Below, in pieces: positions 13,253-62,446 of a DNA stretch of 64,000 bases. The notes under the pieces are model-generated. The model ran no database searches, was not told where the DNA came from, and saw only the letters and a list, made by a program, of their open reading frames with translations. The stretch's first letter is position 1. Every line of letters begins with the position of its first letter. Made by a program: the position numbers and the translations under genes. The stretch spans positions 325,246-389,245 of the forward strand of contig NW_005201403.1 of assembly GCF_000372725.1 (NCBI RefSeq), read 5' to 3'. Origin of the DNA: Emiliania huxleyi CCMP1516. Taxonomy: Eukaryota.

Positions 13253-15746
13253 ATGTCGTCGGTCCTCTCTCAGGCGGACGTCGACCGGCTGCGGCGCTAC
13301 GCGACGCGCCGGCCCGCGCAGTCGCGTGAGGCCGCTGAGGCCGAGGTCCAGGCCGAGACGGAGAGGATCTGGCGCGAGCGCGAGGCCGCCGAGCTGCGTC
13401 GAGACCCGACCTTTGCGCAGATCCCGCGCTTCCACCTCAAGCGCTCTCACGCCCCGCGCACGAGCGCCCACCGGGGCGGCGGCGGCGGTGGCGCGCGCGC
13501 GAGTGCCGCCAGCTCTGCCGACGACCAGCGGCGCGCGCTCGAGGAGGGCGTCGGCAAGCTCGCTCGCCGGCGGCTGCGCGAGCACATGCTGTCGCTCATG
13601 CTTGAGCCGGCGGAGCTGGACGAGTGCTGGCGGCTGCTGCGCGCGCACGCGTCGCCGCCCGCGTCGCCGCTCGACGAGCGCATCGACTACGCCGGCTTCT
13701 GCCGCGTTGCGGACGCCATGCCCGCGCGGCTCGGCCGGCACTTTTTCGGCGCCGAGCACTTTTTGCGCTTCCCGAATGACCCGTGGGGGCGGGTGTCGAT
13801 CGTGCACTACTTTTGCTGGCTGCGCAGCAAGACCGCGATCCTGCGCACGCGGATCGAGTTCTCGATCTACGACCACTCCACCGATGGCACGCTTGGCGAG
13901 CGGGAGCGGGAGCCGCGGCGAGTGCGCAGATTTCTTGTTGCGGCTGATGCAGCTCCTTGTTGACAGGCGAGCGAGAGCTGGAGCAGTGGGTGTCGGACCT
14001 GCTGCCGCAGCTGCCGGCGCTGCGCGAGCTACGCGAGGAGTTCTTCCCCTTCTACAAGGCGACGAGAGACAGCCGAGAGACAGCCGAGAGACAGCCGAGA
14101 GACAGCCGAGAGACAGCCGAGAGACAGCCGAGAGACAGCCGAGAGACAGCCGAGCTGCGCGAGGAGCTCTCCTCACCTGTGTGCAAGGTGACTGCCGTGC
14201 GAAAGTTCTTCTTCTTCCTCGACCCGCGCCGGCGCGGCCGCATGTCGCCACCACCCCCAATGCTCTCCTCTGCGAGATCACCCGAGATTGCCCGAGACTA
14301 GGCGAGGCCGCATCTCGCTGCAAAAGATGCTGTCCTCGCCGATCATGCACGAACTGCTCGAGCTGCGCAGAGGCGAGGCTTGCCGAGATGGGCCGAGATG
14401 GGTCGGCCGAGGGGGAGGGTGGCCGAGGGTGGCCGAGGGTGGCCGAGGGTGGCCGGGGTTGCTTCTCACGAGTCTGGTGGCTGTGCAGGCGACTTGGGCC
14501 AGGAGGAGCTGCGCCAGAACTGGTTCTCGCTCGAGTACGAGACGCTGCACTGCAGGGCTGCATCGGCCAGAGGACGTGTCGAGGTGATGCCGATGCCGTG
14601 TGTTTCGTAGGTACGCAGAGATGCTCTACTCGGACTACCTCGAGCTCGACGCGGACCAGAACGGCATGCTCTCTGTCGGCGAGCTCATGCGCTTCCGCGG
14701 CGGCGCGCCGCCAGGAGGAGGGCTGACAGCGCCATTCGTGCAGCGGGTCTTCCAGGATTGCCACCACGCACCACAGACCGCACTTGCACCTCGGAGTCAC
14801 TCGGAGTCACCTCGGAGTCACCTCGGAGTCCTCGTGGGTGATCTCGACCTGATCTCGACCTGATCTCGACCTGATCTCGACCTGCAGGAGTGCCACACGT
14901 ACCGCACCAAGAGCGACGACGGCGACACCAGAGCAAGCTCGACCGCAAGCCGTGGGCGGCGCCTCTTCACAGCGCCGGCCGTGAACAGGCGTCGCGCAGA
15001 GCGAGCTCGACTACAAGTCGTACCTCGACTTTGTGCTCGCGCACTCGTACAAGGGCACGCCCGAGGCGCTCACCTACTTCTTCAAGCTGCTCGACCTGCG
15101 CCGTGCAGGCCGGCCGCTCGGGCTGGACGCCGCCTGCACTCCTTCCGCGCTGCATGGCGTGAGACTGTGTGTGTACTAGGCCGGCTGCTCGGGCTGGACC
15201 TCGCCTACTTCTTCCGCGCGGTCCTCGAGAAGTTTGACGAGCTGGGTGAGGAGCCGAACTGCCTGGTGGCGGACGTGCAGGCGTCGACCCGGACCACGAC
15301 CATCACCCATGACCCTGACCATGACCCTCACCCCCCCTCACCCCCACCCCCACCCCCACCCCCACCCCCACCCTCACCCTCACCTGCCTTTGACCTTCAG
15401 GACGAGATCTTCGACATGGTGAAGCCGGCAGACCCGCGCTACATCACCCTGCAGGACCTCATCAACTGCAGGCCGCACCCGATGCGTTTCTCCTCCGCTC
15501 CGCAAATCTCGCCCTCAGGCGCCCCTCCCCCCTCGCAGGGTCGGGGATACCATCGTCGGCATGCTCACCGACGCGCACGCCTTTTACCAGCACGACCGGC
15601 GCGAGGAGCTCATGCCACACGACGGGGAGGGGGCGGGGGAGGGGATGGCGGGGGAGGGCGAGGCGGAGAGCAGCGGCGATACCAGTGCTGGCCAGCCGCA
15701 GCGGGAGGCGGGGGGGCCTGCGCCGGCGGCGGTAGCATTCGGTTGA
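13253..15746 (+). CDS. PPP2R3C: PP2A regulatory subunit B'' gamma (PPP2R3C / TON2-FASS-like), multi-exon
   Basis: Spliced product contains QIPRF, TAVRKFFFFLDPRRRGRI, NWFS, the EF-hand YLELDADQNGMLS, LDYKSYLDFVLA and DEIFDMVKPADPRYITLQDLINC. About 10 introns. Confidence 0.9.
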
Positions 15747-16270
15747 TGCGCGCATTGCGTCGCGAGTCGCGTGGCGTGCCAAGTGCATATATTTTGCTTC
15801 TCTCGCTCCCCGCACTCTGGAGTCAGAGACCCACGGCTCACGGGACTCACTCGGCAGTCACTCGGGAGCTCGGCGGCTCTCTCGCTCTCAAGAGTCAAGT
15901 CGTGTCAAGAGAGAAGAGACATCAGACAAAGTCAAACAAAGACCACAGCGTCTCACGGCCGGGCCGGGGGCCGCGCGGGACGGGGAGGGGGGAGGGAGGG
16001 GGGTGGATCCGTAAATCCGTAATTCCGTAAACAAAAGCCAGCAGCGAGTCCCCCCGCACCGCACCCAGCTACCAGGCAGACAGAGACACAGCACTCGCGC
16101 GACATGCTAAGAAGCCGGGGGCTGGCCTCTCTCTTGGGCCAGGTACCAATTTTGTCGAATTTATTTCAAAATCTGCAGGCGCGGAGCGCCTGCGAAAATT
16201 TTGAAGAAATTTGCAGTCGGGCCTGATTTTCATCAAGATCTTTCAAATTTGCGGTGTGGAGGTGGGGGGT

Positions 16271-16478
16271 GGGTTAGGTTAGGGTTATTAGGGTTAGAGG
16301 GTTAGGGTTAGGGTTAGGGTTGTCAGGGTTGTCTGGTTGTGTCTGTATATGCCAGCGTTGCAGGGTTCTGCGCTGGTATCTGGCCCCACAGCGCCGACGA
16401 CTAAGACTCAGCCCCACACGCTGACCTAGGGTTAGGGTTAGGGTTAGGGTTAGGGTTAGGGTTAGGGTTAGGGTTAGT
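16271..16478 (+). repeat. Interstitial telomeric (TTAGGG)n tracts
   Basis: Degenerate tract at 16271-16322 and perfect tract at about 16427-16477, each followed by a related ~90-nt unit. Confidence 0.95.
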
Positions 16479-16571
16479 CTTCTTGTGTTTGTATGCCAGC
16501 GTTGCAGAGTTCTGCGCTGGGATCTGGCCCCAGCGCCGACGAGTAAGACTCAGCACCGCACGCTGACCCCA

Positions 16572-17237
16572 CCAAATGCCGCCTCAGGGCGCCAGGCCGC
16601 CAGCCACTTCTTACACGCGGCCGGCGCCCTCTCGCGGCAAAAGGGTCGAGCGAGCGGGCAGAGTCGCGATGTCTGCGCACCCGCGTGCCGATGGGCGGCA
16701 CACGCAACCGAGAGAGGCCCTGTCACGCCGCCAGTAGCGTTCTCCGCACTCCCCACGCCACCAATTGCCGCCTCAGGGCGCCAGCCACCTCCTTACACGA
16801 TTACACGCGGCCGGCGCCCTCTCGCGGCAAAAGGGTCGAGCGAGCGGGCAGAGTCGCGCGATGTCTGCGCACCCGCGTGCCGATGGGCGGCACACGCAAC
16901 CGAGAGAGGCCCTGTCACGCCGCCAGTAGCGTTCCGCACTCCCCACGCCACCAATTGCCGCCTCAGGGCGCCAGCCACCTCTTATACACGCGGCCGGCGC
17001 CCTCTCGCGGCAAAAGGGTCGAGCGAGCGGGCAGAGTCGCGCGTTGTCTGCGCACCCGCGTGCCGATGGGCGGCACACGCAACCGAGAGAGGCCCCGTCA
17101 CGCCGCCAGTAGCGTTCTCCGCACTCCCCACGCCACCAATTGCCGCCTCAGGGCGCCAGCCACCTCTTACACGCGGCCGGCGCCCTCTCGCGGCAAAAGG
17201 GTCGAGCGAGCGGGCAGAGTCGCGATGTCCCTGCGCA
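16572..17237 (+). repeat. Tandem repeat, ~185-190 bp unit, about 3.5 copies
   Basis: Units start near 16572, 16761, 16951 and 17136 (CCAA(A/T)TGCCGCCTCAGGGCGCCAG...). Confidence 0.95.
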
Positions 17238-17766: not shown

Positions 17767-19689
17767 TCACGGAAGGGCAAACAGCCCGTACGCCTCCTCC
17801 TCGCTGTCGTCCCCCTCGCTCTCCCCAAAGGCCAGTCCGCCCACGCCGATCGCCCCCAGCCCGCCAACCGCCCCCAGCCCGCCCCCGCCCGCCGCCCCGC
17901 CCCCGACGCGCAAGCGGGAGATGAGGGCAGAGAGCGTCGTCGCAAGGCGCTGCCTGCCCCGGCAGGTGTCCCGGACGGAGCCCAGCGCGCGCAGCTCGTG
18001 CTCGCGCCGCCGCGCCTAATCTCGGGCGATCTCGATCTCGAGCGATCTCGACGTCCTCTCGGCGTGCTCTCGGGGCCTCACGCGCCGCGTGCTGGTCACA
18101 AAAGGTTTGCAGGTGCGCAGTCAGCTCGGGCGGAGGCATCCTCTCGCCCTGCAGCGGCGAGCGCCTCGCCATGCAGGAGAGCATCGCCCCGCCCGCGAGC
18201 CGCCTGCGGTGAGGCGAGGGTGAAAGGTCGGGCAGCCTCCTCGCCACACACACAAGGCGGCGGGGCAGGGGCCAGGCTGCGACCAGCTGGGCTGCGACTC
18301 CCGACTCCACGTCTAAAGAAAGGAGCTGGGCATGAAAAGTGCAAGGCCCGGAACACGCGGGAGACTCACTCTCGACAGATGAGAATGAGACCCCTTCCCC
18401 GCCAGTCGCCACAGGAAGGAGCTCGCTCATCTCGCCTCCATCTCGGCTCATCTCGGCTGCATCTCGCCTCGTCTGCCCGACCGCAGGAAGGAGCTCGGCC
18501 GCCAACTCGGGAAAGTCGAGGGGCGGCTCCGGAGTCGAGAGGCTCTGCAGCACCAGCACGGTGCCTGCGAGAGGGCCTCGAGGGTGATTGCTACACCGAT
18601 GCATTCGCGAATACGGCGCGCGGCGCAACCGGCACGCGGCCTTCGGAGAGAGGCCGCGTCAGCACGCTGTATCTCGGCTGTATCTCGGCGATCTCTCGGC
18701 GATCTCTCGGCGGCCTTCGGAGTGAGGCCTCATCAGCACGCCCACCCGCCCGTTGTGTGACCAGGTGCCTGCAGGAGCCGGTCCGAGAAGGCTTCACGGA
18801 CGCCCGCCCGCCTCCTCCCCTCCCCCCCCCCCGTGTGGCGGGGCCAGGCGCCGTCAATGTCGGTGTAGAGCAGGCGATCCTCCACCACGTCGCTGCTACC
18901 GGCCGAGGGAAGCGGCCTGCACTGTCATCCACCGTCGATGAGTTCATCATCAATGAATGAGGTGAGCGCGCCGAGGGAAGCGGGCCTGCACTGGCACACC
19001 CACCCTCGCGACTCGGACGCGCGGGAGAACTGGAAGGCGCCGTCCGCATAGTAGGTGTGCTCCTGTGATGCATCATCGACGAGATCACCAGTCACTCATG
19101 AGTCGCGCCGCCCGCGTAGTAGGCTGTGCTCCTCTCCCCACGGCGTGAGGAAGGTGCCGTCCATCCACTCTGGCTGCCTCCGGAGCAGCCGCAGCCTCGG
19201 GCAGCGCCGCATCGCCTCGAGGACGACGACGTAGCCCACGCACTCGCAAAAGGTCAGGTGCAGCTCCTAGACAGGCCGGGACACGTCGGGGACAGATCGT
19301 GGTCGCCGCTCGCAAACGGCGAGGTGCTCCTCGATCGCGGGGCAGCCGGCCACAACGAGTCTGACGCCGTTGTTCGTGACTCGCGCCGCGCCCGTGAGGT
19401 CGAGCAGCGACAGCTGCGGCAGCCCCGCCACCGCGGAGAGGTGCGCGTCGCCGATCGGCACCCGGCGCAGCCGCAGCTCGCGCAGGCTGCTCAGTTGCCG
19501 GAGCGAGGGGCAGAGGAGGAGCGGCAGCTTACCCAAGGATAGCTCGGTGGCGGAGAGGCAGCGCTCCCGCTGGTCGCCGACTGCGGAACGCAGGGCGGCG
19601 CACGAGCAAGCGCAGTGCGCCCAGTCGGAGTGCGTGCAGTGCGCGAGCAGGAGGGCGAGCAGGTCCGGCGACAGGTCGAGCAGTTCCAT
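17767..19689 (-). CDS. F-box/LRR-like protein, multi-exon (3' exons uncertain)
   Basis: MELLDLSPDLLALLL is F-box-like. LRELRLRR, LSLLDLTG..VTNNGV and LHLTFC..V are Cys-containing LRRs. Acidic tail before the stop at 17767. Confidence 0.65.
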
Positions 19690-20493: not shown

Positions 20494-23685
<3,192 letters not shown>

Positions 23686-23934
23686 GCCGCGTGTTGTGAG
23701 AGCGGTTGCACACACACACACGTGTGTCGCCCCGGCCACACAGGACCGCAGCCGCTGTCTGCTATAGCCGCAGCCACTCCCAGCTGCTCGGTGTGAACAG
23801 AGTTCGTACCGAGCAGCAAGACCGAGGCCCTCGGTGTTCACAGCGGAGTGGCTGGGGCTATACCAGACAGCCGCAGCCGCGCTTAAAGAATTTACGCTGC
23901 GCGGGTTTCCGTTTGTGCCGCATCCTGTGCCCCC

Positions 23935-33621: not shown

Positions 33622-36464
33622 TCACACCAACCGGCAAGCCTCGGTCGCTCGACTCGGCTCCTCGCCGCATCCACCCCCCCCCCCACTACCGCCCGTCGAC
33701 CCGCCTCTGCGGACCCATCTCTCCGTCTCTCTACCTGCCGCCTCGTCGTCGTCGTCCTGGCGGCGGCGTGGAGGCCGCGACGGCGAGCGGCTGCGGCGGC
33801 CGGCCTGCGTTGTGAGCAGGCCAGACTCGGGGTGTGAATACGAGTGGTGTGAATACGAGTGGTGTGAATACGAGTGGTGTGAATACGAGTGGTGTGAATG
33901 CGAGTGGTGTGAATGCGAGTGGTGTGAATGCGAGTGGTGTGAATGCGAGTGTCTGGCCGTGCACTCAGCGAGCCTCGCGTGTGTTACCGGAGCTGCGGAG
34001 ACAGTGCGATACAGCCGAGCACGTGACCTCTCGAGCGCTGGCCCGATCCCCGCATCTACAGCCCCCGCGACTGGCGAGCGGCTGCGGCGGTGGCTCGCCG
34101 GCGCGCGGCGGCGGTCCTGCCGTGAGCGCGAGCGTGATCGCCGGTCTCTGCGAGGGCGGCTCCTCCGCCCCGAGTCTGAGTCGGAGTCCGACGACGAGGA
34201 GGAGGAGGAGGAGGAGGAGGAGGAGGAGTCGCCGCCCTTCTCCTCGGGCGGCAGCTTGGCGAGCTCGACTGTGCGCTGGTGGAGGAGCGGCTCGTCCACG
34301 GCGAGCCTGCAGGAGAGGACCCGAGAGGACCCGAGGTGACCAGAGGTGACCCGAGGGGACCCGAGGGGACCCGAGAGGACCCGAGGATACGGCTCCTCCA
34401 CGGCGCGCCTCTCCGCGAGGCGCTTGGACATCTTCGGTCGCGACTTGACGACGCGCCGCCAGACAGAGTCGAAGGAGGAGCGAGGGCACAAGTTCTGCGT
34501 GACGGCGACGGTCACCTGTCGATCATTGGCGGCGGGTGCTTCGCTCGCTCGCGAGGGACCAGGCTCTGCGTGAGTTGCGGCGGCGTCACGTCGAGGTTGA
34601 GCACGCAGTGCCACCAGCCGCCCGGCACATACACCGTCTCGCCTGCAGGAGAGTACCCGAGAGTACCCGAGAGTACCCGAGAGTACCCTAGAGTACCCGA
34701 GAGGACCCGAGAGGACCCGAGAGGACCCGGCACGTACACCGTCTCTGCAGGCACGTCTCTCCCCGTCTCTCCCCGTCTCTCTCAATCTCTCCCCGTCTCT
34801 CCCCGTCTCTCTCCCCGTCTCTCTCCCCGTCTCTCCGTCTCTCCCCCCCCCCCGGCACGCACGCCGAGGGCTCCTCGGGGGGGGAGGGGCTCCTTCCAGT
34901 CCCGTGTGTACCACCGCCCGCACACAGTGGTGCGCGAAAGTGAGGGGCCCCGGTCCCTCTCGGCTGCCTCTCGGCTGCCTCTCGGCTACCTCTCTCGCCC
35001 GCGGTCTGCACGAGGGTGAGTGGGCGGTGGTCTGGGTCGGTCGCGGCGGCGAGCTTCGGGTAGACATTCGCCCACCACGCAACCGCCTCCCTGCCTAATG
35101 TTCAGTCTCCGACGGCCACTCCCTCGTCAACTCCCAGCCCCTCGCCCGCACACGCGACCGCCTCCCCGCCTCCGTGCAGCTTCGGCGTCGGCTGGACGAC
35201 CTCCTTCGGCACGTGGGGCGGGAGGAGCGCCTGGAAAAGAAAGCCGCCGGCTCACGAGACAGGAAGCGGGTCCGGAGCGGCGCGGTGGAGCGGCAGGAGA
35301 GGACCCAAAGCTTGCGGCCCTGCAGCAGAGCGTTCCACGCCGACGTGCCGAGCGGGTCGATGTGGACGTACGAGCCGGAGCGAGCCGGGCCGAGCACAAA
35401 CCAGCGATACGGAGGCCGCCGCCTCTCGCCCGCGTACCTAATCTCGGCTCCTCTCGCCTCCTCTCTCTCGCCCGCAGCCCTGCCAATGCAGCCCCCCGGC
35501 TCTGGCTCATGCCGGCCGCAGTCTTCCGCACATGGAGGGGCGCTTCTCGCCCGCGATACACCGGAGCAGGTCGCCGCAGGAGCACTGCGGCGGCTATATC
35601 TCCGCTGCCTCTCCGCTGCCTCTCCGCTGCCTCTCGGCTGCCTCTCCGCTGCCTCTCCGCTGCCTCTCCGCTGCCTCTCGGCTGCCTCTCCGCTGCCTCT
35701 CCGCTGCCTCTCGGCTGCCTCTCGGCTGCCTCTCCGCTGCCTCTCCGCTGCCTCTCGGCTGCCTCTCCGCTGCCTCTCCGCTGCCTCTCTGCGGCGCGTA
35801 CCGGAAGAGGTCGTCTGCAAAGTAGTGCGGCGGCGCGTAGTCGCGACCGAGCCGTGAGGTGCCGCTCCGCTCGGCAAAGGAGGAGTCGAAGACGTAGAGG
35901 GGAGAGTCATCGCGGCTCGTCGCGAGGTAGCGCAGGTAGTACCTACTCTCGACACCACCTCATCGCCTCGCCCGCAGACCGACCCGGCGAGAGGCGCGGC
36001 GCGGGGCGGCGCTTGAGCTTGAGCCACACCGCGTACGAGTCGTCGTCCTCTCCGACCTTGAAGCGCTCGCCGCCATACTGCCGCAGCAGCTCGCCCAGCG
36101 ACCACGCCCCGCCGCGGCCCTGCCTGTCGCCCGCCGCGCCCGCCGCCCAGCTTTCGGTCGCGCCGCGGATCACCACCGGCCGCCGCGGCTGCTCCCAGTC
36201 GCGCACGAACTCCTCGCGGCTGACCTCGCGCGTGTCGATGCGCGGCCCGTTGTCCGGGATCGCCTCGAGCTGCGCGGCGAGCGCCGTGTCGGAGGCGAAC
36301 GAGGCCTTGCGCCAGTCCTCGGCGGTGCGGCGTGGGTAGATGAGCCGCTTCGCCTTCCCGATGCGGCGCTCGAAGCGCTCGGCCGGCTCCGCTAGCAGCT
36401 CGCGCCAGGCGGGGTCCTCCGTGGGGACCGAAGGGTCGACCGTTGCGTCGGATGGCGTTGGCAT
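33622..36464 (-). CDS. JMJD6: JMJD6-like JmjC hydroxylase/demethylase, multi-exon
   Basis: [62 protein letters not shown] (HxD), [23 protein letters not shown], poly-Ser and RS-rich tail. Confidence 0.92.
33830..33952. repeat. 15-mer satellite (GGTGTGAATRCGAGT)n, about 8 copies
   Basis: Directly visible. Confidence 0.95.
35600..35790. repeat. Intronic 11-mer satellite (CTGCCTCTCSG)n
   Basis: About 17 copies. Confidence 0.95.
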
Positions 36465-45126: not shown

Positions 45127-47953
45127 TCACACCGCCTTTTTGAAGGTGGGTGCGCTCGAGGGGAGGGCGTCCATTGCGCGCAGCCCCGCCCGTGAGGTTG
45201 CGTACGAGCGCACGCGGCCCTTCTTGAGGTCGTGCACCTCCGAGCGGTTGCCCTCGCCCAGCATGGAGAAGGCGCTCATCTTGACGGCAAAGCACTCCCC
45301 CGCATCGAAGCCCGCGACCGCCTGCATCTCCCCCATCAGCTCGACGCCGAAGAGAAAGTCGCGAAACTCGCCCGCAAAGTAGAGGGGCAGGCTGGGGACG
45401 GCCTTGAAGTCCGAGGGCGCGCCTCCCGCCGCGGCGCACGCCTCCTCGATGAGCGGCACGAGGCACTTAGTGTTGAGGTTGCCGAGCCTGCAGCACGGGG
45501 GCGGAGGAGGAAGGGGCGGAGGAGGGGTGGGGAGGGGTGGGGAGGGGCTGCAGCACCGCCGAAGACAGCTGACTCCGGCCGAACACGTGTCCTCTCAAGA
45601 CCTGCTGGAGTACGAGGCGGTCCGTGGGCAGCATCTAGGCTACCGCGCCACAGGTATGCGAGCGACTTGTGCAGGGCCACGTCCATCAGGAACGGGTCGA
45701 GCCCGAGCTTGGGCGGCCGCAGCGGGTTTGGGCTAAAGGCCTTGACGGCGTCGAGCTTGGCTCGGGCAGCGTCCGTGTCGCGGATGTAGAAGAGCATCAT
45801 GCACCAGTTGCCCGCCTGCAGGTCCCCCACCGCTCTCATCGCCATGAGCACGAGACTCGTGCATTCTCCCTGCACCCGCTGCGCGCCCAGTAGCGGTGGG
45901 AGATGTAGTAGCCGAGTCGGTCGGGCAGCACATTGCCCGCGGCGCAGGTGAGGCACTCGGCGCCCAGGTACACGAGTAGCAGCGGGCTCGCCTGGGGGTG
46001 AAGAGGATGTGAGCGTCTGCCCACACACATACAGCGGCGGGAGGCCCACTCAAAAGTGGGACTCTTTGACTGTGGCTCCCTCAAAGCGTGGCTCCTCAAG
46101 CGGTCGCCTGCGAGTAACCTCGGGTGATCTCGGGTAATCAAGCGTGGCTCCTCAAGCGGTCGCCTGCGAGAGGCCCGCCCAGTCGAAGCCGAGGGTCTCG
46201 ATGCGCCAGAAGAGGAGCGGCACGCACAAGCCGAAGCAGAGGTTCCAAGAGTACACGTCGAACGGCGCCTTATCGCAGAGGGAGGCGTGCAGAGGCCGAC
46301 GCAGGGTGCGAGGAGAGTAGACGCATCGAGCGGCGCCGGCATCGCCAGGATGTAGGCGTGCATCGCGCCGAGAGAAGCCATCCCGAAGGCGACCGCACCT
46401 ACTCGCGGCTCATCATATCTCGCGGCTCATCTCGCATCTCGGCGCATCTCGGCGCATCTCGGCGCATCTCGGATCATCTTTGCCGTCCGAGGGCAGCAGC
46501 AGCGCGAGCGGAGCCAAGTACCTACGAGAAGCGGGCAGAGACCGCTCAGAGAAGCGTCCATTTTGGCCAGACCCCGGCCCTGCTCCACGCGCTCGACGGC
46601 CGCTGCAGCGTGCGCCACGGCCTGCCCGAACCTGGTCGGGGAGATTACCCGAGATTGCCCGAGATCACCCGAGATCACCCGAGATTACGTGCACGACGGC
46701 CAGCCCTAACCTGGTCGGGGAGAGGTGGAAAGGAGAGCGGACGAGCAAGCCGGCGAGCCAGCGCCGCGCGGGCGCGAGGAGCATCGACTGCAGCATGAAG
46801 GGGCCTACTCTCTGCTCAGCTCTCGGAGACTCTCTGCGACTCTCGCGAAAGGCATCGACCGCCGCAGGGAGGGGCGGCCGTTGACGTACTCGAACCAGGG
46901 CCCGATCTGAGGCGAGGCAAGGTACGGGTGGTGCACAGGTCTCCTCGAGCACAGGAGTGGGTTTGTCCGTGGCCCACGCCTTGCCCACGCCAGAGAAGAA
47001 CCACTGCAGCAGCAGCGCGGTCTGCATGCCCGCGAGGCGGCCTAAGGTCACGCCAGCCCAGGTCACGCCAGCCCAGGTCATGCCAGCCCAGGTCACGCCA
47101 GGCCCAGGTCAGGCGTGCTCTCTCTCGCTGTTGAGGTCTCGGCCCGGCAGCCCGACGAGGCGACTCGGCGTCTGGAGTGCAAGGCCCGGGTGCGAGTGCG
47201 GGTGCGCGGGCGCGCCTCGCTCGGCGGGAAAGCATGCAGACAGCAGCACGGAGTAGTATGTGTGGCCGTTTGCGGCGTAGAACTGGGTCGAGTCGGAAAG
47301 GAAGTGGAACGCGTCGCAGCCGCAGATGAGCCAGAGGGCCTGGCGGGAGGGGTGCTGCTTGCTTCTGTGCAGCTCTGACTACTACCGCTAGCCGGAACGC
47401 GTCGCAGCCGCAGATGAGCCAGAGGGCCTGGTGGGAGGGGTGCTGCTTGCTTCTGTGCAGCTCTGACTACTACCGCTAGCCGGAGGGCCTCGGTGCGGTA
47501 CTCGCGAGAGGCGAGAAAGGCAAAGATGCCCACGTAGAACAGGAGGTGCGAGAGCAGGTCGACAGCCGTGCGCCGCGTACCGAGGACGGCCACCTTAGCC
47601 AGCTTGACGGTGCCGAGGCTGAGCCGGTACATCAGATTGCATGGCGGTCCGAGATGCCCGTAAATTGGACCTTGGCGGCAGCCGAGCGACTCGGCAAAGT
47701 GCTGCCAGACGATCAGCTTTACAAAGCCGTGCAACAGTGGCTGTTTGTGCGTGCTCGGGCCCACTGCGAGCAGAGTCAGCGCAAAGCAGCCGTAGTTAAT
47801 CAGGAGGAGGGTGAAGTGCCAAATGTAGACGACTGCCGGACGCCTGAGTCCGTGGAGCATGATGTCGATGGCGCAGCGGTCGAGCCGCTCGGCAAGCGGC
47901 ATCGCGCTCCACTGAGTGCTCGTCACCCCTTCCATGTCGCGAGGAGTCGCCAT
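45127..47953 (-). CDS. DUF3556-like multi-pass membrane protein, multi-exon
   Basis: QWSAMPLAERLD, LGCRQGPIYGHLGPP...YRLSLGTVKL...RTAVDL, WFFSGVGK, AGNWCMMLF and MQAVAGFDAGECFAV match my recollection of the DUF3556 motif order. Confidence 0.65.
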
Positions 47954-48916: not shown

Positions 48917-51900
48917 ATGGCGTGCAACGAACGCCTTGCGAACGGCGCGGAAGGATACGTCGGACTCCCCAACGTCCCGTACTCCCAGTGCGAGGAGTGG
49001 TGCAAAGCCGGCACCGCCCTGGTGCGAGCGATTGCGACTCTACCAGACCCTCCCCACGCTCGCCGGGCCGAATCGCCCTCGCCGCAGCCACCCGATCTCG
49101 CCGCTCCGTCCCCCTCAGGGCATCACCGACCTCGACGTCTGCTCCATCGCGTGGAACAACCCGGTCCCGTGGCGCAAGATCGCGGGCGACTTCGGCGAGG
49201 GCGCCATCATGGACGAGTGGGCGGGGTACGTGCTCGTGCTCGGCTTCGGCGTCTTCTTCTCCATCGTCACCACCATCATGGTCAAGCTCGAGCAGATCTA
49301 CGGCGGCCTCGTCATCTCGTCCGAGCACTTCAACACGGCCGGTCGTAATATCAAGACCGGTCTGACCGCCGCGGTGCGCCACCCCAACCCCACCACCCTT
49401 TAGGGCACGAGCGGTCGGGCTGACGTCCCCTACCCCCTTCCCTCAGGTCATCGTCTCCCAGTGGACGTGGGCCGCCACCCTCCTCCAGTCGTCGAACGTC
49501 GCCTCCAAGTACGGCCTCTCCGGCCCCTTCTGGTACGCGGCGGGCGCCACCGTGCAGATCCTCCTCTTCGGGATCCTCGCCATCGAGATCAAGAAGAAGG
49601 CGCCCAACATGCACACCTTCCTGGAGATGATCGACGTGCGCTGGGGCAAGCTGGCACACCTGACCTTCCTCTTCTTTGCCATCTGCACCAACCTCATCGT
49701 CACGGGCATGCTGCTCCAGGGCGGCGCCGCCGTCGTCAACGCCGCCTCGGGCATGCACATCGTCGCGGCCAACTTCCTCATTCCCGTCGGCGTGATCCTC
49801 TACACGTGGTTCGGCGGCCTCAAGGCCACCTTCCTCGCCTCCTACATCCACACCTCGGTCATCATGATCTGCCTCGTCGTCTTCATCACGTGCGCCACCC
49901 CCCCCCCCCACACACACACACCACCACCACACACCACCACCACCACTCCCCGCCCGAATTCCCCCCTCCCCCAGCCGCCCCGCCCCGCCCCGGCGCCGCC
50001 CACGCCCAACCCCCTCGCCATCCCCACCCGCAGGTACGTCTACGCCGTGCCGGGCGACATCGAGTGCACGTCCGCAACGGAGAAGCAGTGCAACGCGCTC
50101 GGCTCGGCGGCGCTGCTGTGGGAGCGGCTCCGCTTCCTCAACTACCTCCCTGCCAAGACCGCGGGGATGACGTTCCCAGATGGCGCCTACGTGCCGACCG
50201 CGGACGATCCGGGACCGGGCAACTTTGAGAAACTCACGTACACCGAGAAGGACTACCACCACGGCCCCGTCAACGGCAACCGCGGCGGCTCGTACCTCAC
50301 CATGCTCTCCGAGGACGGCCTCAGCTTCGGCGTCGTCAACATCGTCGGCAACTTCGGCACCGTCTTCGTCGACCAGTCCTACTGGCAGTCCGCCATCGCC
50401 GCGCGCCCCTCGTCTGCGCACCGTGGCTACCTGCTCGGAGGCCTCGTCTGGTTCACCATCCCCATGTCGCTCGCCACCGCGCTCGGCCTCTCGTCGCTCG
50501 CGCTCAACGTCAAGATGCCCGCCGACGAGGCCGCCGACGGCCTCGCGCCGCCCGCCGCCGCCATCGTCCTGCTCGGCCAGGGCGGCGGCATCATGATCAT
50601 CATCATGCTCTTCATGGCGCGCGCTTCGACCCATCCACGTCCCCCCTTCCCCCTTCGCCCTTCCCCACACCGCCCCCCCTCGCCGCGCAGGCCATCACCT
50701 CGACCGGCTCCGCCGAGTGCATCGCCGTCGCCTCCCTCTTCGCGTACGACATCTACCGCAAGTACATCAACCCCGAGTGCACCGGCGCCCAGCTGCTCAA
50801 GGTGTCGCGCCTTGTCGTCGTCGGCTACGGCATCGTCTGCGGCCTCTTCGGCTACTTCCTCTACGGCGTGGGCGTCGGCCTCGGCTGGGTCTACAACTTT
50901 ATGGGCAACCCCGCCGCCCCCACCGCTATCCAGTCAGACAGCCCACCCTGCATCCCGCGCCCTCTCGCCCGCTCACCCGTCGCTCACCCGGGCTGTGCCG
51001 CACGGACACGCGCTCAGGCACCATGATCGGCTCCGCCGTCATCCCCGTCTCGTGCTGCATCTGCACGCGCTACATGACCAAGAACGGCGCCATCGCGGGC
51101 GCGTGGGGCGGCATGATCCTCGCCCTCGTCTCGTGGATGTCGGTCGCCGCCTCGCGCTGCACCAACGGCGACGACCCCGACGACCTCGCAGAGGGAGTGG
51201 ACTGCGATACGGGTGCGACGCGACCACTCCCCACCGCCACGCGGCCGCCACGCCGCCACGCCGCCAGCTTGTCGAGCTCACTCCCCTCTGTGCGTCGTCC
51301 GCAGGCAAGCTCAACGTCGACACCCTCGGCAACATCAACGCGCAGACCGCCGGCTCCGTCGTCGCGCTCTGCGTCTCGGGCATCATCGCCTTCCTCGTCG
51401 CGAGCATCGAGTACAAGATGGGCACGGAGCAGCCCTTCGAGTGGGAGAAAATGCGCGAGGGCATCAAGCGCGTCGAGCAGGCGAAACCGCACCCTCCCCC
51501 CCCCCCCTTCCCGCCTCCCCAAAACTTCGCCTCCCGCGCGGCGCCCATTCATCCCCGCCCCGCCCCGGGCAGAACGTGGCAGAGGCCCCTCAGTAGGGCC
51601 CCCCCTCACACGACACCCCTCCTCCCGCCGCGCCTTCCCCTCCGCAGGAGGCGGACGACGTCCCCGAGTACGAGATGACCTCCGAGTACCTCGACCCGGC
51701 CGCAAAGTACGTCTTCAAGTATGGCGTCGGCTACTCGGTCTTCCTCATCTTCGTCTGGCCGCTCGCCGTCATCGCGTGGGGCGTCTTCGACAAGGCCAAC
51801 TACACGCTCTGGGCCTCGGTCGCCTTCTGCTGGGGCTACATCGCCTCGGGCTTCATTGTCGTGCTTCCCATCTACGAGTCGTGGGGCTCGATCTCCAACG

Positions 51901-52972: not shown

Positions 52973-54732
52973 AATCGTCCGCGCTGCGTTCGCATCGGGT
53001 GCGGCGCCGCCTCCCGGCAGGTTGCGCGCGTGCTCGCGGTGCCACGGCGAGGGCGGGCTGTACACGCGGGGAAAGCGGCGCTCAGGTGGCGCCGCGGCCG
53101 TGATCCGCCGGCCGTGCGCGAACTGCGGCGGCATCGGGCTCGTCGATGGAATGCTGCCTCCGCCGCGACATGAACCGGGGCCCCGGGACCGTGCGTTTGT
53201 CGGCACCGTAGCCATTGCTGGCGGCGGCATCGGCGGCGCCGCAGCGGCGCTGGCGCTGCAGCAGCGCGGTCGTGTATGAGCGCGACTCAAACTTTGACCA
53301 GCGCGCGCAGGGTTACGGCCTCACGATGCAGCAGGGGGCGACTGCGCTGGCGCAACTCGGCCTGCCCAATGAGGGCGTCTTCTCGTATGCCCACTCCTCC
53401 TTCCTACCGGACGGAACGCTCCTCGGGGAGTATGGGCGGGGCGTGCACGAGAGCACGCGCGAGCGGATGGGCAACGGGAGAGGGAAGGCTCAGCGGCGCA
53501 ACGCCCACATCCCGCGGCAGGCTCTGCGGGCGGCGCTTCTCGACCCGCTCCTGCCGGGGACGGTGCGGTGGGGCAAGGCAATCGCTCGCTTTGACGCCGG
53601 CGACTCGGGCGTCATCCTGCACTTTGAGGACGGCTCGCCACCCGAGCGCGCCGCGCTCCTCGTCGGCGCCGACGGGATCCGGTCGCGAGTGCGCGAGCAG
53701 CTGCTCGGCGCGTCACCGCTCGAGTACCTCGGCGTCGTCGTTGTGCTCGGGCGCTCGCGCACGTCTCACGCTGCGGCGAGCGAGCGAGTCTTTCAGACCC
53801 TCGACGGCGACACGCGCCTGTACGTGATGCCGTTCGAGGCCGGCGTTGCGATGTGGCAGCTCTCCTTCCGACTGGGCGAGGCGGAGGCGCGGGCGATTCA
53901 GACCCTAGACGGCGCATCGCTCCGCGCCCTCGCCCTACGCCGGTGCGGAAGCTGGCACGAGCCGAGTCTGCACCCGCGCGGCACTCCCTGCGCCCTTCAA
54001 CGAGCCTCCCAGGGGCCTCTCCGTAGGCACGAGCCGATCCCGCAGCTGCTGCAAGACACCGCGGCCGCGGACATCACCGGCTATCCAGCCTACGACCGGC
54101 CTTGCCCCGCCGCCCTCCGACAGCCCACCTCTGCCGGCGAGGCGCTCGGAGGGCTGGGTGGTGAGGCGGGTGGCGAGGTGCCGCCACCGACGCTTGCCAC
54201 GGAGACACGGGTGCGCGCGCCGGTCGCGGGCGGCGGTGGCGGTCTCACCCTCATCCCCGGTCCCTCGACGCTCCGCTGCCAGGTCACCCTACTCGGAGAC
54301 GCAGCGCACCCGATGTCGCCGTTCAAGGGGCAAGGGGCTAACCAGGCCCCACGTGCCGGGCGTCGCCGACATCGAACGGCGTCGATGCACCCCTCCCTTG
54401 TGCGAACAGGCCCTCCTCGACGGGATCGCCCTCGCCCGCGCCCTTCGCTCCCACGAGCTTCGCGGTGTCGTGCGGCGTTGCGGCCGCGCCAGCGGAGGTT
54501 CCCACTCAGGTCACGCGCTCTCTCTCTCAAGCGACGCGCGGCGCTTTCCATGTTCGAGGCAGACATGCTCGAGCGGGCGCGCCGCAAAGTGCGTGCGTCG
54601 CGCGACGCGGCGGAGCTGCTGCACTCGCCCGAGGCGATGGCAAAGTCGAATTCGACGCGCGCGCGGTCGGCGAGGGACAAGCGGCAGCTCGAATCCACTA
54701 CAGCAGCAGGAGAGGGGCGGGGGGCGGTATAG
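52973..54732 (+). pseudogene. FAD-dependent monooxygenase with N-terminal CxxCxGxG zinc finger; frameshifted and without a start codon
   Basis: CSRCHGEG...CANCGGIG, VAIAGGGIGG, YERD, QGYGLTMQQG, LVGADGIRS, LLGDAAHPMSPFKGQGANQA. The frame breaks at about 53270. Confidence 0.75.
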
Positions 54733-54994: not shown

Positions 54995-56710
54995 ATGGCC
55001 GCTTCTCAAGCTTCAGTTCCTCCATCGCCGAGGCTGGAGGACTATGAGATTGGACCGCTCCTCGGACGAGGCGCTTGCGGCGAGGTCCGGCTCGCCTCGC
55101 GGCGGCCGGACGCGGCAGCGAGTTGCGGCGCGGTGCAGCGGTGCGCCGTCAAGGTGATACCGCAAGGCAAGCCTTCATCTGCACGGGACGTCATGTGTGA
55201 GGTGGAGATGCTTCGGCGGTGCTCGCACCCTCACATCCTGCGGCTTCTCTCTGTCTGCGAGGACGGGCCCAACCTTTGCCTGCTCCTCGAGTTTTGCGCG
55301 GGTCCGGACCTGCAGCGGCTGCTCGACCTGCGTGGTGCGCTCCTTGAGGATGAGGCGAAGCGGATCTTTTCGCAGGTCTGCGCCGCACTCTGCCACCTCC
55401 GCGAGCGGCGCATCGTCCATCGCGACGTCAAGCCGGCCAACGTAGCGCTCAAAGCTGCACTGCCCGACGACCGCAGCTCGTCGCTCTCGCGCTGCATCAC
55501 AAAACTGCTCGACTTTGGCTTCGCTCGCGTGATCGATGTCGCGGTGGCCTCCCCCAGGGCGAGGAGGTGGGGCAAGCGGCGCGGCGACCGCTCCGTGCAC
55601 GGAATCGATTCCGGGTCAAAGCACGGCGGCTCCAACTACGGCGGCTCGAAGCACGGCGGCTCCAACTATGGCGGCTCGAAGCACGGCGGATCCGAGTGCG
55701 GATCCACGCACGGCGGCGAGACGACGGTGGAGCTCGAGATGGACGGCTCGCTCGTGTTTGACGGCAGCACGCACTCGGCCGCGTGGCGGGGAGATTCCCC
55801 GAGATTACCCGAGATTACCCGAGATTGCCCGAGATTAGGCAGCACGCACTCGGCCGCGTGGCGGGGAGATTCCCCGAGATTCCCCGAGATTACCCGAGAT
55901 TGCCCGAGATTAGGCAGCACGCACTCGGCCGCGTGGCGGCGCACAACCTACTTGCCGAGGAGCGCGCCGAGCAGCCCGACGGGGCACCGCACCGTCGGCG
56001 AGGTGAGGATGACGCCGCTCGGGACGCGCCACTGGGCGGAGCCGCGGCTGCAGGCGGCGGGCCTGGGCGGCGGCGTCGGCGCGGACGGGCGGCTCGTCAT
56101 GAGCCTCGACGAGGTGGGCCGTCTCCCTCCCCGAGATCATATCTCCCCCATATCTCCCTCATATCTCGTCCTACACGCGAGGAGGCACAGGCCGAGATCA
56201 TATCTCCCCCATATCTCCCTCATATCTCGATGAGGTGGGCCGTTTCCCTCCCCGCCTGGCCCAGCTGCCCTGGCGCGAGGCGGGACCCGCACCGTGCGGG
56301 CTGTAGGCGCTCCAGCTCGACACCTTCTCCCTCTCGCGGCTGCTGCGCTACATGCTCACAGGCGCGGTGGGGAGGCGAGGCGGACCGGAGATCAAGGGAG
56401 CCGGAGCTGCGCCGCGCCCCCGCTGGTAGGCGCGCCGCCCAACCAGACCATCATGGAGGCGCTCGAGGCGCAGGGCATGGCGGGCTGCGGCTGTGCGGCC
56501 GCCCTGGTCGGCAGGCGGCCGCCGGCGAGGCGCGTGGTGCGCGAGCTGAGCGAGGTGAGCCCCGAGGCGCGGGAGGTGCTCGGCGCCCTGTCCCGCGGGG
56601 CGGCCGAGCGCGCCTCCGTCTTCGAGGCGTGCCGACACCGCTGGATTGCGGACGAGAGCGTGCACGGGCGCGCGCGGGGGTATACGAGCGACGAAGGAGC
56701 GGAGAAGTAG
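54995..56710 (+). CDS. Ser/Thr protein kinase with a long insert after DFG, multi-exon
   Basis: LGRGACGEV, AVKVI, HPHILRL, HRDVKPAN, LLDFGFAR, GTRHWAEP, LDTFSL, HRWI. Confidence 0.88.
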
Positions 56711-59721: not shown

Positions 59722-59759
59722 CTAGCTGCGCAACCCTGAGCCGAGCTCCAGTTTGCTCA

Positions 59760-62446
59760 ATGCCGCAGCACACCCTCTTCATCGCCGGCCCACGCCGCGC
59801 GCCCGCGGTGAGCGAGGCTGTCCGCGGATTGGCCGGCGCGCGCTCGGCAGACGACTGGCGCGTCGCCTTTGCGTGCGGCGAGGCCAGCGCTGCAGCGTGG
59901 CAGCCGGCGAGCGAGTGGCCGGCCGAGGCTGCGTCGTCGGCGGGGGTGGATGCGCGGGGTATGATCGCGAGGATCGCGCGCCTCCTCCAGCTCGTCCCCG
60001 CCGGCTCCTCGCTCGTGGTGAGGTGGGCCTTCGAGGGCGACGCGCCGACCGACGAGGCGCTCGGGTTGGGCGTGCACGCGGCGGTCAGCTTCTCCGAGGG
60101 CCTGGGCATCAAGGACTGCCGCACGCTGGTAGTCGAGTGGCTCGACGACGGCCGCGCCGCGGACTCGGCCGCGCTCGACGTGTGGGCCGACGTGCTGCGC
60201 GCGCGGAGGGTGGCAGTCGCTGCAGACGCACCCGAAGAGGAGGCGCCGGCGCAGTGTCACGCACCCGGCCGCCGCCCGCGTCGCACGGTCTCTGACGCGG
60301 CTCCCGCTCCCCCCTCTCCTCCTCGCCGCAGGCCGCCCGGCTGATCTCGGGCGCGCCTCCGGACGGCTCCGCCCTGGGCGAGGGTTGCGTAGAGGCGCCA
60401 GGGCGAGGGCCAGGGAGAGGGTCGCGCAGAGGCGGAGGAGGCGCGGCCGCGCAGAGCCCGGTCGCGCCGCGGGCTGGTTCGGTTGCCGCCGCCGCCGCTT
60501 CAACGAGCAGCTCGTCCGGCGCACCAGGGCAGGCGCCAGGGCAGGCATCAGGGCTCGCCCTCGCTGCCGGTAGCGAGGGCGGCTTGCAGCACGGCGGAGG
60601 GAGCAGCGACGGGCGAGGGGCAAGCCCTCGCTCCCGGCTGCGCCGCGCCGGCAGCAAGGAGCGGCCGCAGGAGCGGCAGGCGGCGGCGGGCGCCTCGCAG
60701 CCGCAAGCCGCCGCCGCCGCCGCCGCCGCCGCGCCCGCGCCGGGCGGGCGCACGGGCGCGGGGCCGTGCTTGCAGCGGGGGCAGAGCCTGGTCCGCGGCC
60801 AGAGCCTCGTGCAGGGCTGCGGCGGGACGAGGGGCGAGGCATGCCCAGGACACGTCCAGGACACGTCCGAGACACGCCCCTTCGGCGGCGGCGGGACGAG
60901 GGGCCAGGCGGCGGCGCGGAGAGGCGGGGAAGGGGGAGGGGTGGGTTGGATCAAATTCCAATACTTGTTTCTGGTAGGCCTTCTATTTTTCTATTTTTTT
61001 ATTCTAATCTCTCTTTTCTACTCCTTTTCGTAGCNNNNNNNNNNNNNNNNNNNNNNNNNNNNNNNNNNNNNNNNNNNNNNNNNNNNNNNNNNNNNNNNNN
61101 NNNNNNNNNNNNNNNNNNNNNNNNNNNNNNNNNNGGCGCTCTCGGAGGCACAGTCGTCGCCGCAGTAGGACTGGTAGTTGTAGTGGCTGTACGAGCTGGT
61201 GCTCGCCCCCCCCTTGGATACGAGCAGATCAGTCCGTGGTCGCTGGCCCTGTGAGACAGGTGGGTCGAGGAGGGGGTCGAGGAGGCGGGGGGGAGGCGAG
61301 GCCAGCGGCGAGTCGGCGCGGCGCGGTTGTCTCGCGCGAGAGGCTGGCGGGGCTGCTGCGCGACGCGGTGGAGGAGGAGGCGCGGCGGAGCGGGCAGGCG
61401 GGCGGCGTGGACGGCGCGGACGGCGGCGGCGGGGCTGGCGCCGCGGCAGCGGGCGGGTGGGCGACGCTGCCCCCGCCGCAAGACGTGCCGCGTGTGGGCG
61501 GTGCGCATGTGGCGTACGAGAACGAGGCCCAGGCAAAGGCGGTGGAGGCGCGGCTCCTCGTCGTCCTGCTCGCACCTCCCTCCCTCTCCTCTCCTCTCCT
61601 CCCTCTCCTCTCCTCTCCTCCCCCTCCCCCTCCTCGTCTCGCCAAACAGCGAGCGAGCGCAGCTTCTCGGCACTTTCCCGGCAGTTTCCCGGCACCTTCG
61701 CGGCACCTTTGCGGCACCTTCGACCGCAGGCGCGACTCAAGGCGCACACCCTCAAGCCAAAGGCTGAGCACGGCTCCATCCTCGCCCTGCTGCTGCCGGC
61801 GCTGTCCAGGACACGTCCATGACATGCCCGAGACTTGTCCACAGGCTCCATCCTCGCCCTGCTGCTGCCGGCGCTGCCGTGCGCACGCGCCGGAGGGATG
61901 CCGCCCGAGCAAATCAGCCTGCAGCAGCCGCGCCGGACCGAGGCGCCGCCCGAGCAAGCGCCGCTTGGGCGGGGCGGTGCAAGCAGCAGCACGGGCGGTG
62001 CAAGCAGCAGCACGGGCGGTGCAAGCAGCAGCACGTGCGGCGCAGGCAGCGGCGTCGGCGCGGGCAGCGGCAGCGGCGTCAGCGCGGGCAGCGGCAGCGG
62101 CGTCGGCGGGTCATCGCCGCGCAACGACAGCTCCGAGCCGTCGGCAGCCCAGCCGGCCGTCCACGCCGACTTCGCCACGCACACCCTCGGCTTGGCGAGG
62201 AGGCTGGTGGCGGAGAAGGTGTGCGGCGGTCCCGCCGGAAGCGAGGAGCAGGGCGAGGCGGCGAGGTTGGCCGCCAGGCTGCAGAGCGCGCTTCACGCTC
62301 GCATGCGGCAGCGGCACACGCTGGGGGGGCAACGCCCGCCGCTTCGGAGCGCATACGATGCGGCCGAGGAGAGCCTCGCTGCCGTGTTTCGCGACGTGGT
62401 GCGAAAGGGGCTCGCAGCGCTCGAGTCGGAGCAGCACGCCCCGTGA
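59760..62446 (+). CDS. Hypothetical multi-exon protein(s) spanning a gap
   Basis: Coding-like exons (MPQHTLFIAG...; ...RKGLAALESEQHAP*) and short GC-AG introns. No domain recognised, and linkage across the gap is unproven. Confidence 0.45.
61035..61134. other. Assembly gap
   Basis: Run of N. Confidence 1.

What the first reader, a model, noticed from the sequence alone, without database searches (positions are those of the whole stretch)
13896..61876. Introns across the window begin with a copy of the next exon's start: apparent ongoing intron birth by local duplication
Seen: in many unrelated genes the intron 5' end repeats the first bases of the downstream exon. Near-exact cases: 61772-61804 = 61844-61876 (33 nt exact; GC-AG intron 61773-61844); 46140-46170 = 46084-46114 (31 nt exact; minus-strand intron 46163-46108); 23084-23118 vs 23012-23045 (one inserted base; intron 23117-23045); 53955 vs 54027 (11 nt exact); three 27-nt copies at 55763, 55838 and 55913. 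Decayed cases: 15109-15150 vs 15180-15219; most other PP2A introns (about 13896, 14237, 14535, 14756, 14932); F-box introns 19329-19267 and 19131-19063; several JMJD6 introns. Many of these introns are 56-75 nt: duplicate + filler (often a CCGAGA-type satellite) + AG. Established: tandem duplication of a proto-splice site is a proposed but rarely documented route to intron gain. Inference: the range from exact to decayed copies points to a continuously active mechanism (staggered break or slippage with satellite fill-in, helped by permissive donor recognition). It would also explain the GC/GA donors, since the donor is simply whatever the exon began with. An alternative is later gene conversion or slippage into pre-existing introns.
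Basis: partly seen in the sequence, partly recalled or inferred. Interest (0 to 1): 0.9.

Follow-up and report, generated by a model that had tools for sequence, protein, structure and literature searches.

The report
Introns born from duplication plus repeats
In this marine alga many introns start with a copy of the next exon's first 12-36 bases followed by short repeats, and related algae carry such introns at different places (one relative has one, filled with chromosome-end repeats, where its near twin has none), so new introns are likely being made continually when repeat DNA is patched into broken genes.

Summary
In 28 window introns defined by RNA or homology, the intron start resembles the next exon's start (score 5.1 vs 0.8 in shuffled pairs, p=1e-4; no 3'-side excess). 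All 28 downstream exons begin with G (controls 12 of 27), and the donor tends to match the exon's first two bases (p=0.009). The excess comes from PP2A, JMJD6 and 61773; the other 11 RNA-defined introns show none.

Birth is favoured over rewriting of old introns. PP2A-B'' intron positions are shared with seven other haptophyte loci in only 2 of 60 comparisons, and two orthologues 91% identical share none of nine positions. Relative L035 has a 29-35-nt duplicate plus (CCCTAA)n fill where its 98%-identical relative L025 has one plain copy.

Best reading: insertion of short repeats at a staggered break; the duplicate gives the donor, the insert end the acceptor. A telomerase-like enzyme is inferred, not shown. 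Against: three window positions recur elsewhere, and a second allele shares all seven introns covered.

The scan noted single telomere-repeat introns in other genomes before. Ten paper searches found no description of this architecture.

The parts
61773..61844 (+). 72-nt GC-AG intron: 32-nt exact copy of the next exon's start, 11-nt-periodic filler, AG
   Evidence: RNA joint in 4 of 4 runs; borders; in-frame stop if retained
13896..13966 (+). PP2A B'' gamma-like intron, codon 134 phase 1, GC donor, decayed 5' copy (score 11)
14059..14187 (+). PP2A intron 165/0; the duplicate lies on the 3' side (copy of the upstream exon end); 11-nt satellite filler; position also occupied in L057
14232..14301 (+). 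PP2A intron 179/2, 5' copy (score 10), CCCGAGATTA-type filler ending at the acceptor
14373..14488 (+). PP2A intron 203/1, weak 5' copy (score 2), 10-nt satellite filler
14535..14610 (+). PP2A intron 218/2, gapped 5' copy; the L055 allele is further decayed
14756..14887 (+). PP2A intron 262/0, GA donor matching the exon start, 11-nt satellite filler; position also occupied in L054 (GT donor) and L060
14913..14988 (+). PP2A intron about 270/1 (donor less certain), gapped 5' copy; left out of the 28-intron statistic
15109..15179 (+). PP2A intron 310/1, strong 5' copy (score 20)
15281..15400 (+). PP2A intron 344/0, no detectable copy; C-rich filler with 6-nt period resembling decayed telomeric repeats; position also occupied in distant L046
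15472..15538 (+). PP2A intron 367/2, no detectable copy
35438..35801 (-). JMJD6-like intron, 364 nt, 5' copy (score 9), satellite, and an internal decayed copy near 35541-35555
   Evidence: spliced alignment to P0082, 100% identical over the first exon
35095..35169 (-). JMJD6-like intron, 5' copy (score 14.5)
34643..34998 (-). JMJD6-like intron, 356 nt, short 5' copy, two satellites, internal copy of the exon start near 34726-34745
34516..34589 (-). JMJD6-like intron, 5' copy (score 7.5); P0082 reads into it (retained form)
34307..34408 (-). JMJD6-like intron, 5' copy (score 12.5), 10-nt satellite in reverse orientation
46108..46163 (-). candidate 56-nt intron; 31-nt exact duplicate spanning the junction (7 nt upstream, 24 nt downstream), CCCGAGATTA-type filler
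   Evidence: splicing not observed
46632..46710 (-). candidate 79-nt intron; 36-nt duplicate spanning the junction (13 + 23 nt); filler is the reverse complement of the 55764 filler
   Evidence: splicing not observed
23045..23117 (-). candidate 73-nt GT-AG intron, 34-35-nt near-exact copy
   Evidence: splicing not observed
53955..54026 (+). candidate 72-nt GC-AG intron, 11-12-nt exact copy
   Evidence: a contig piece ends at 53953 and goes on
55764..55913 (+). two tandem 75-nt units (27-nt duplicate + CCCGAGATTA array) in a kinase gene; likely one insertion doubled by unequal exchange between its direct repeats
   Evidence: a contig piece ends at 55762 and goes on; same multiplication in L025/L035
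56114..56234 (+). candidate 121-nt intron, 29-nt duplicate spanning the junction
   Evidence: splicing not observed
19063..19329 (-). two candidate GA-donor introns (19131-19063, 19329-19267) with gapped 5' copies
   Evidence: splicing not observed
20749..22358 (-). further candidate introns with 5' copies near 20821, 21866, 22125 and 22358
   Evidence: splicing not observed
49022..51647 (+). seven RNA-defined introns of a urea-transporter-like gene (name recalled): no detectable copy, but all seven next exons begin with G
63167..63786 (-). four RNA-defined introns of an EF-G-like gene (name recalled): little copy; 63714-63786 carries the CCCGAGATTA-type filler

Best explanation
These introns are likely new insertions: a short run of simple repeats sits between two copies of a 12-36-base stretch of the gene, as would result from repair of a staggered break, and the upstream copy supplies the 5' splice site while the end of the insert supplies the acceptor, so splicing restores the original message exactly. 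Shown: the duplicate-filler-duplicate anatomy, its excess over chance, removal from RNA contigs in one near-exact case, mostly lineage-specific positions, and one filled/empty pair in a related lineage. Inferred: a first nick next to G|G[C/T] and a second nick 12-36 nt away on the other strand; survival in exons only of inserts that are spliceable and long enough (14 of 28 introns are 67-76 nt); later decay of the intronic copy; occasional doubling of the unit between its direct repeats. Least certain (about 0.45): the filler is added by nick-primed reverse transcription by telomerase or a telomerase-/LINE-like enzyme. In related loci it is (CCCTAA)n ending in phase with CCAG; in the window it is mostly 10-11-nt CCGAG-core repeats of unknown template. 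Where the duplicate itself holds AG|G, both splice sites come from it.
For: 5' excess p=1e-4, no 3' excess, no anchored-score excess in non-haptophyte controls. Next exon starts with G in 28 of 28 vs 12 of 27 (p=1.5e-6); donor follows exon start (p=0.009). PP2A positions shared with 7 other genomic haptophyte loci in 2 of 60 comparisons (searches corrected). L035 and L057 (91% aa identity) share 0 of 9 positions in their common region. L035 carries a 29-35-nt duplicate plus telomeric fill at 188/0; L025 (98.3% coding identity; genomic, as it holds other such introns) has one copy, and L057, L010, L054, L019, L004 and the window have no intron there. Telomeric arrays are C-strand sense (22:1, 24:0, 10:0) and end in phase with CCAG at 6 of 7 independent sites, GCAG at the seventh. 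The repeat contains CTAAC, a branch-point consensus (recalled). One window filler family links 7 introns in 5 genes, in both orientations; the fills of 46632 and 55764 match over 51 nt at 90% in reverse. It ends in GAG[AG][TC]TA also at two sites away from the acceptor. Precedents: telomerase-linked repeat insertion at breaks, with target duplications in 6 of 130 rodent and 4 of 25 primate loci and template-adjacent extra bases (PMC2246262); staggered-break introns in Daphnia (PMC4202315).
Against: Three of 10 window PP2A positions recur elsewhere: 165/0 in L057, 262/0 in the sister locus L054 (GT donor) and in L060, 344/0 in L046. The 262/0 intron has a copy and a GA donor, which needs either parallel gain or rewriting. 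The only other allele of this species (L055) has all 7 introns covered, so no presence/absence difference is shown here. 11 of 12 RNA-defined introns show no significant copy. The comparison rests on one gene. The filled/empty pair is one site in metagenome contigs. k-mer contigs could drop a loop between 33-nt repeats, and runs of other strains could lack the segment in DNA, so the RNA joint at 61773 is not proof of splicing. Only 1 of 28 window introns has a 6-nt-periodic filler. No enzyme or template RNA was identified.
Confidence: 0.72

Rival explanations
1. Old introns have their 5' ends rewritten: a break near the donor is repaired on spliced RNA or cDNA (or by local conversion), which copies the start of the next exon into the existing intron.
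For: Explains why copies begin exactly at the junction. Position 262/0 is shared with sister locus L054 yet carries a copy and a GA donor in the window. Exon copies lie inside long introns (near 35555 and 34745), and one in L057 223/0 spans the junction.
Against: 7 of 10 window positions occur in no other species' locus aligned; 0 of 9 shared between L035 and L057; the youngest case has an empty site with no intron in any outgroup. All three shared sites are phase-0 (C/A)AG|G sites, where parallel gain is expected (PMC3443670).
Confidence: 0.13
2. Plain tandem duplication of an exon segment containing AG|G makes the intron, and the middle is later replaced by satellites that expand by slippage.
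For: Some duplicates span the junction with AG|G in both copies (46108, 46632, 56114). An 88-nt exact tandem without filler exists at 47306-47484. The route is established (PMC3443670).
Against: The model predicts the intron 3' end copies the upstream exon; no such excess. The youngest introns already have a perfect duplicate next to unrelated filler. The same filler recurs in unrelated genes in both orientations.
Confidence: 0.07
3. The fillers are very short mobile elements (Introner-like DNA elements, truncated LINE tails, or reverse-transcribed intron ends) with unusually long target-site duplications; no break repair or telomerase is involved.
For: Shared filler family with a fixed end. 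Introners that carry the 3' site and take the 5' site from the TSD are known (PMC9860276).
Against: No end-to-end intron family among 40 introns (22 of 780 pairs match, mainly over repeat tracts), no terminal inverted repeats (2.9 vs 2.8 nt control). Duplicate length varies 12-36 nt against 3-9 bp for Introners. The filler differs by lineage (telomeric, AT-rich, CCGAG-type). This is still intron birth; only the source differs.
Confidence: 0.06
4. The repeats are assembly artefacts, or coding duplications kept in the mRNA.
For: Draft assembly with gaps; 53955 and 55764 units are in frame without stops; intron retention is common in E. huxleyi (PMC4028052).
Against: An independent contig (L055) has the same introns; homologues lack the inserted residues; RNA contigs skip 61773.
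Confidence: 0.02

Closest known systems
Intron gain by staggered double-strand-break repair in Daphnia pulex (Li et al. 2014, PMC4202315; passages seen)
   Same: New intron flanked by a direct repeat of adjacent exon sequence; repeated events at one site; presence/absence between close relatives.
   Different: Daphnia intron-exon repeats are 4-12 bp (33 cases among 90 introns); here 12-36 nt, in about half the introns tested, starting at the acceptor, with a recurring repeat filler that gives the acceptor.
Interstitial telomeric insertions at breaks attributed to telomerase (Nergadze et al. 2007, PMC2246262; outline and passages seen)
   Same: Telomeric repeats inserted at an empty site, sometimes with target duplication and extra bases next to the repeat tract.
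   Different: There duplications are a minority (10 of 155 loci) and the passages seen do not link them to introns; here, in L025/L035/L057, they sit in coding sequence as GC/GT-AG introns. The window's young fillers are not telomeric.
Introners, e.g. Symbiodinium microadriaticum type (Gozashti et al. 2022, PMC9860276; passages seen)
   Same: [quoted passage not shown]
   Different: Introners are end-to-end similar families with 3-9-bp TSDs and often TIRs; here long variable duplications, repeat-only inserts, no TIR excess. The main text does not mention Emiliania.
Tandem genomic duplication of an AGGT segment (review Yenerall and Zhou 2012, PMC3443670; passages seen)
   Same: Donor equals the exon's own sequence; duplicate straddles or abuts the splice site.
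   Different: The intron is not wholly duplicate; usually only the donor comes from it, and GC or GA is accepted in place of GT.
GC-AG majority introns of Emiliania huxleyi (Feldmesser et al. 2014, PMC4028052; passages seen)
   Same: About 60-65% GC donors; the window has 16 GC, 11 GT, 1 GA of 28.
   Different: That paper attributes GC donors to high genomic GC; the passages seen do not mention similarity to the next exon.

Membership tests
Tandem genomic duplication (AGGT model) | Whole intron is a duplicate, so its 3' end copies the upstream exon | tested here: not met
   No 3' excess in 28 introns (p=0.06-0.20); unrelated filler in the youngest cases
Tandem genomic duplication (AGGT model) | Both splice sites come from a duplicated AG|G | tested here: inconclusive
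   True for candidates 46108, 46632, 56114 and L035 188/0; not for 61773, 55764, 53955, 14232, 23045
Staggered-break repair introns | Direct repeat of adjacent exon at the far end of the intron | tested here: met
Staggered-break repair introns | Empty site in close relatives with absence in outgroups | tested here: inconclusive
   Met once in a related lineage (L035 vs L025); not met in the window's species (L055 shares 7 of 7)
Staggered-break repair introns | Dependence on a break-repair pathway | not testable with these tools
   needs experiment
Introner elements | Families of introns similar end to end at many loci | tested here: not met
   22 of 780 pairs among 40 introns match, mainly over repeat tracts; one window only
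Introner elements | Short TSD of 3-9 bp and/or terminal inverted repeats | tested here: not met
   duplicates 12-36 nt; inverted match 2.9 vs 2.8 nt
Introner elements | Insert gives one splice site, target duplication the other | tested here: met
Telomerase-made interstitial telomeric insertion | Insert consists of the organism's telomeric repeat | tested here: inconclusive
   Met in L025, L035, L057 (TTAGGG is the haptophyte repeat); in the window 1 of 28 introns has a decayed 6-nt period and the young fillers are not telomeric
Telomerase-made interstitial telomeric insertion | Extra bases match telomerase RNA next to its template | not testable with these tools
   Fixed CCAG end at 6 of 7 sites; no haptophyte telomerase RNA in the main text of PMC8287931 (supplements not read)

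The most novel reading that the evidence does not exclude
Telomerase, or a telomerase-like reverse transcriptase, is a main intron-making machine in prymnesiophyte haptophytes: it primes at a nick inside a gene and copies a C-rich template whose repeat carries the branch point and whose fixed end carries the acceptor, while the long target-site duplication gives the donor. The window's lineage runs the same process with a 10-11-nt repeat template, which would account for its majority of GC donors and rapid intron turnover.
Probability: 0.35. Interest if true: 0.93.

Novelty: new variant of a known kind. Interest (0 to 1): 0.8.

Why it matters
The source of most new spliceosomal introns is still unexplained (PMC3443670). 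Here one route appears to leave a readable trace in about half the introns tested, with a series from exact to decayed copies and a filled/empty pair in a relative. That makes intron birth rate, target preference and the enzyme testable in culturable algae with many sequenced strains. It also gives a mechanical reason for the GC and GA donors of this lineage, and a possible link to the pervasive interstitial telomeric tracts reported in another coccolithophore (PMC13518057).

Tried and rejected
No whole genome is held, so nothing genome-wide was computed. Four repeat-pattern scans of viral contigs found nothing. The genome-contig scan gave 25 single matches in records titled as prokaryotes, not used. 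RNA joints for 45050-48100 were not obtained, which leaves splicing of 46108 and 46632 open; 65 of 80 joints were not displayed. The representative-protein search never ran. An annotation-free register test was weak: of 45 genic repeat pairs, 15 had a splice register at the start on the gene strand vs 5 on the other strand; the set includes satellite and coding repeats; codon-shuffled genes gave 0-6 pairs. The idea that the C-rich urea-transporter introns are decayed telomeric arrays was not supported (no 6-nt period in 7 of 7). Terminal inverted repeats were not found. Aligner calls dropped by hand as in-frame protein insertions: L019 61/0, L010 331/2, L035 326/2, L007 336/0. L006 and other short intronless contigs were left out because they may be transcripts; L018 as a near-duplicate of L019. 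The E. huxleyi genome paper was not held; that it reports 10-11-bp intronic repeats is recalled only. One guessed DOI fetched an unrelated paper. PMC2784329 and PMC13685798 passages held nothing relevant.

Full report
Setting. The window is 64.5% GC. Its PP2A B'' gamma-like protein falls in a 41-row clade with Diacronema lutheri (support 97, quick tree), and 16 of 28 donors are GC, close to the 60-65% reported for Emiliania huxleyi (PMC4028052, passages). I infer an Emiliania/Gephyrocapsa-type haptophyte; no tool named the species and no genome is held.

Observation. Every repeat pair listed with both coordinates is present. To avoid circularity I defined introns without using the repeats. Twelve come from RNA-type contigs of four studies (11 of the 15 joints displayed plus one from the piece table; 65 joints were not displayed; borders). 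Nine in PP2A and seven in a JmjC (JMJD6-like) gene come from spliced alignment to homologues, five of the latter to a protein 100% identical over the first exon. On these 28, the anchored score of intron start against next exon start, skipping the first two bases, is 5.11 against 0.82+-0.34 in permuted pairs (p=1e-4); 13 of 28 exceed the 95th percentile. The 3' side shows no excess. In 27 GT introns from non-haptophyte loci the anchored score shows none (p=0.18). The signal is uneven: it is strong in the 16 homology-defined introns and in 61773, and absent in the other 11 RNA-defined introns. All 28 next exons begin with G (controls 12 of 27), and the donor follows the exon start (GC to GC 10 of 12, GT to GT 7 of 9, p=0.009).

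Splicing. The 72 nt at 61773-61844 are skipped in 4 of 4 runs and contain an in-frame stop. Contigs built from 31-mers could drop a loop between 33-nt repeats, and other strains could lack the segment, so this is support, not proof. For 53955 and 55764 contig pieces end at the predicted donors and continue. The other near-exact cases are candidates from sequence alone.

Anatomy. The unit is duplicate, filler, duplicate, with duplicates of 12-36 nt. In most cases the splice register lies at the first bases of the duplicate, so the donor is the exon's own start and the acceptor comes from the filler end. In some (46108, 46632, 56114) the duplicate holds AG|G and gives both sites; in 14059 it lies mainly upstream. 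Fourteen of 28 introns are 67-76 nt, although duplicate lengths vary widely. Fillers are often 10-11-nt arrays with a CCGAG core. One family links seven introns in five genes and occurs in both orientations; the fills of 46632 and 55764 match over 51 nt at 90% in reverse. It ends at the same phase even in two cases where that end is not the acceptor. So the filler has an outside source and a defined end. There is no end-to-end intron family and no terminal inverted repeat.

Birth or rewriting. A metagenome scan with a haptophyte PP2A alignment gave 64 loci; I spliced-aligned 44, leaving out 17 short single-segment matches and 3 near-duplicate loci. L055 is an allele of the window's species (97.6% DNA identity) with all 7 introns it covers. 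Seven other genomic haptophyte loci (L004, L010, L019, L025, L035, L054, L057) cover 60 window positions in total and share two: 262/0 in the sister locus L054 and 165/0 in L057 (I mis-entered this position in the script, whose sequence output shows it is shared). Among non-haptophytes 262/0 recurs in L060 and 344/0 in L046. Seven of ten window positions were seen in no other species' locus. The three shared ones are phase-0 (C/A)AG|G sites and are patchy within haptophytes. L035 and L057 are 91% identical in protein and share none of nine positions.

The youngest cases are in relatives. L035's three real introns begin with exact 29-, 14- and 13-nt copies of the next exon, followed by (CCCTAA)n and CCAG or GCAG; L057's 350/0 intron has a 12-nt copy and the same fill. 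L025, 98.3% identical to L035 in coding sequence and genomic because it holds other such introns, has a single plain copy at 188/0 where L035 has duplicate plus fill; no outgroup has an intron there. At 236/1 both have the unit repeated, as the window has at 55764. The arrays are C-strand sense and end in phase with CCAG at 6 of 7 independent sites; at two of four sites with a known upstream exon the AG cannot come from the duplicate. The repeat contains CTAAC, a branch-point consensus (recalled). L054 shows exon copies with AT-rich microsatellite fill, so the filler is lineage-specific while the architecture is shared.

Mechanism. The geometry is that of a staggered-break insertion: insert end abutting the start of the downstream copy, long variable duplication. 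In mammals telomeric repeats are inserted at breaks, sometimes with target duplication, and in 8 of 14 telomerase-RNA loci are preceded by bases next to the template (PMC2246262, passages). That offers a reading of the fixed CCAG, but I could not find a haptophyte telomerase RNA. For the window's CCGAG-type fill no template is known. I put birth by insertion at 0.72, with the reverse-transcription step at about 0.45; rewriting of old introns at 0.13, chiefly because of 262/0 and exon copies inside long introns.

Novelty. The parts are known: duplication (PMC3443670), staggered-break introns with 4-12-bp repeats (PMC4202315), Introners that take a donor from the TSD (PMC9860276), telomeric insertions. 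Ten full-text searches returned no listing that describes this architecture in haptophytes. Calcidiscus and Phaeocystis genome papers mention telomeric repeats without linking them to introns in the passages seen. The library lacks most subscription papers, including the E. huxleyi genome paper, and I read no supplements. Earlier notes of this scan describe single telomere-repeat introns with target duplications in other genomes; I reached my reading before seeing them and did not check them.

Noticed in passing
window 23930-29100: LTR-retrotransposon-like element with direct terminal repeats of roughly 570 bp and lower GC, seen by eye in the sequence.
   Followed up: no
window 16271-17224: Intergenic TTAGGG tracts inside a 142-nt duplicated unit, next to a 183-nt tandem array.
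   Followed up: no
window 47306-47484: 88-nt near-exact tandem duplication without filler inside a DUF3556-like gene; whether it is spliced or coding is unknown.
   Followed up: partly
window 52974-53953: RNA contigs differ from the window by 11 gap letters in this stretch and the window frame has stops upstream of 53290; the FAD-binding-like gene (weak Pfam match) may be frameshifted in this assembly.
   Followed up: partly
window 34589 and protein P0082: The protein that matches the window's JmjC gene reads into the 34589-34516 intron, consistent with a retained-intron transcript.
   Followed up: partly
L054 4129-6172: Sister-lineage PP2A gene with very long AT-microsatellite introns that contain several decayed copies of whole exons with their splice sites.
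   Followed up: partly
L057 255-421: GT intron containing a roughly 55-nt copy that spans the exon-exon junction, i.e. upstream exon end joined to downstream exon start.
   Followed up: partly
L035 3405-3495 (minus strand): Candidate intron in a neighbouring gene with a short junction duplicate and a decayed C-rich repeat, possibly an older telomeric-type intron (seen by eye).
   Followed up: no
window 36530-39900: Three related copies of a repeat element with internal 318-nt duplication.
   Followed up: no
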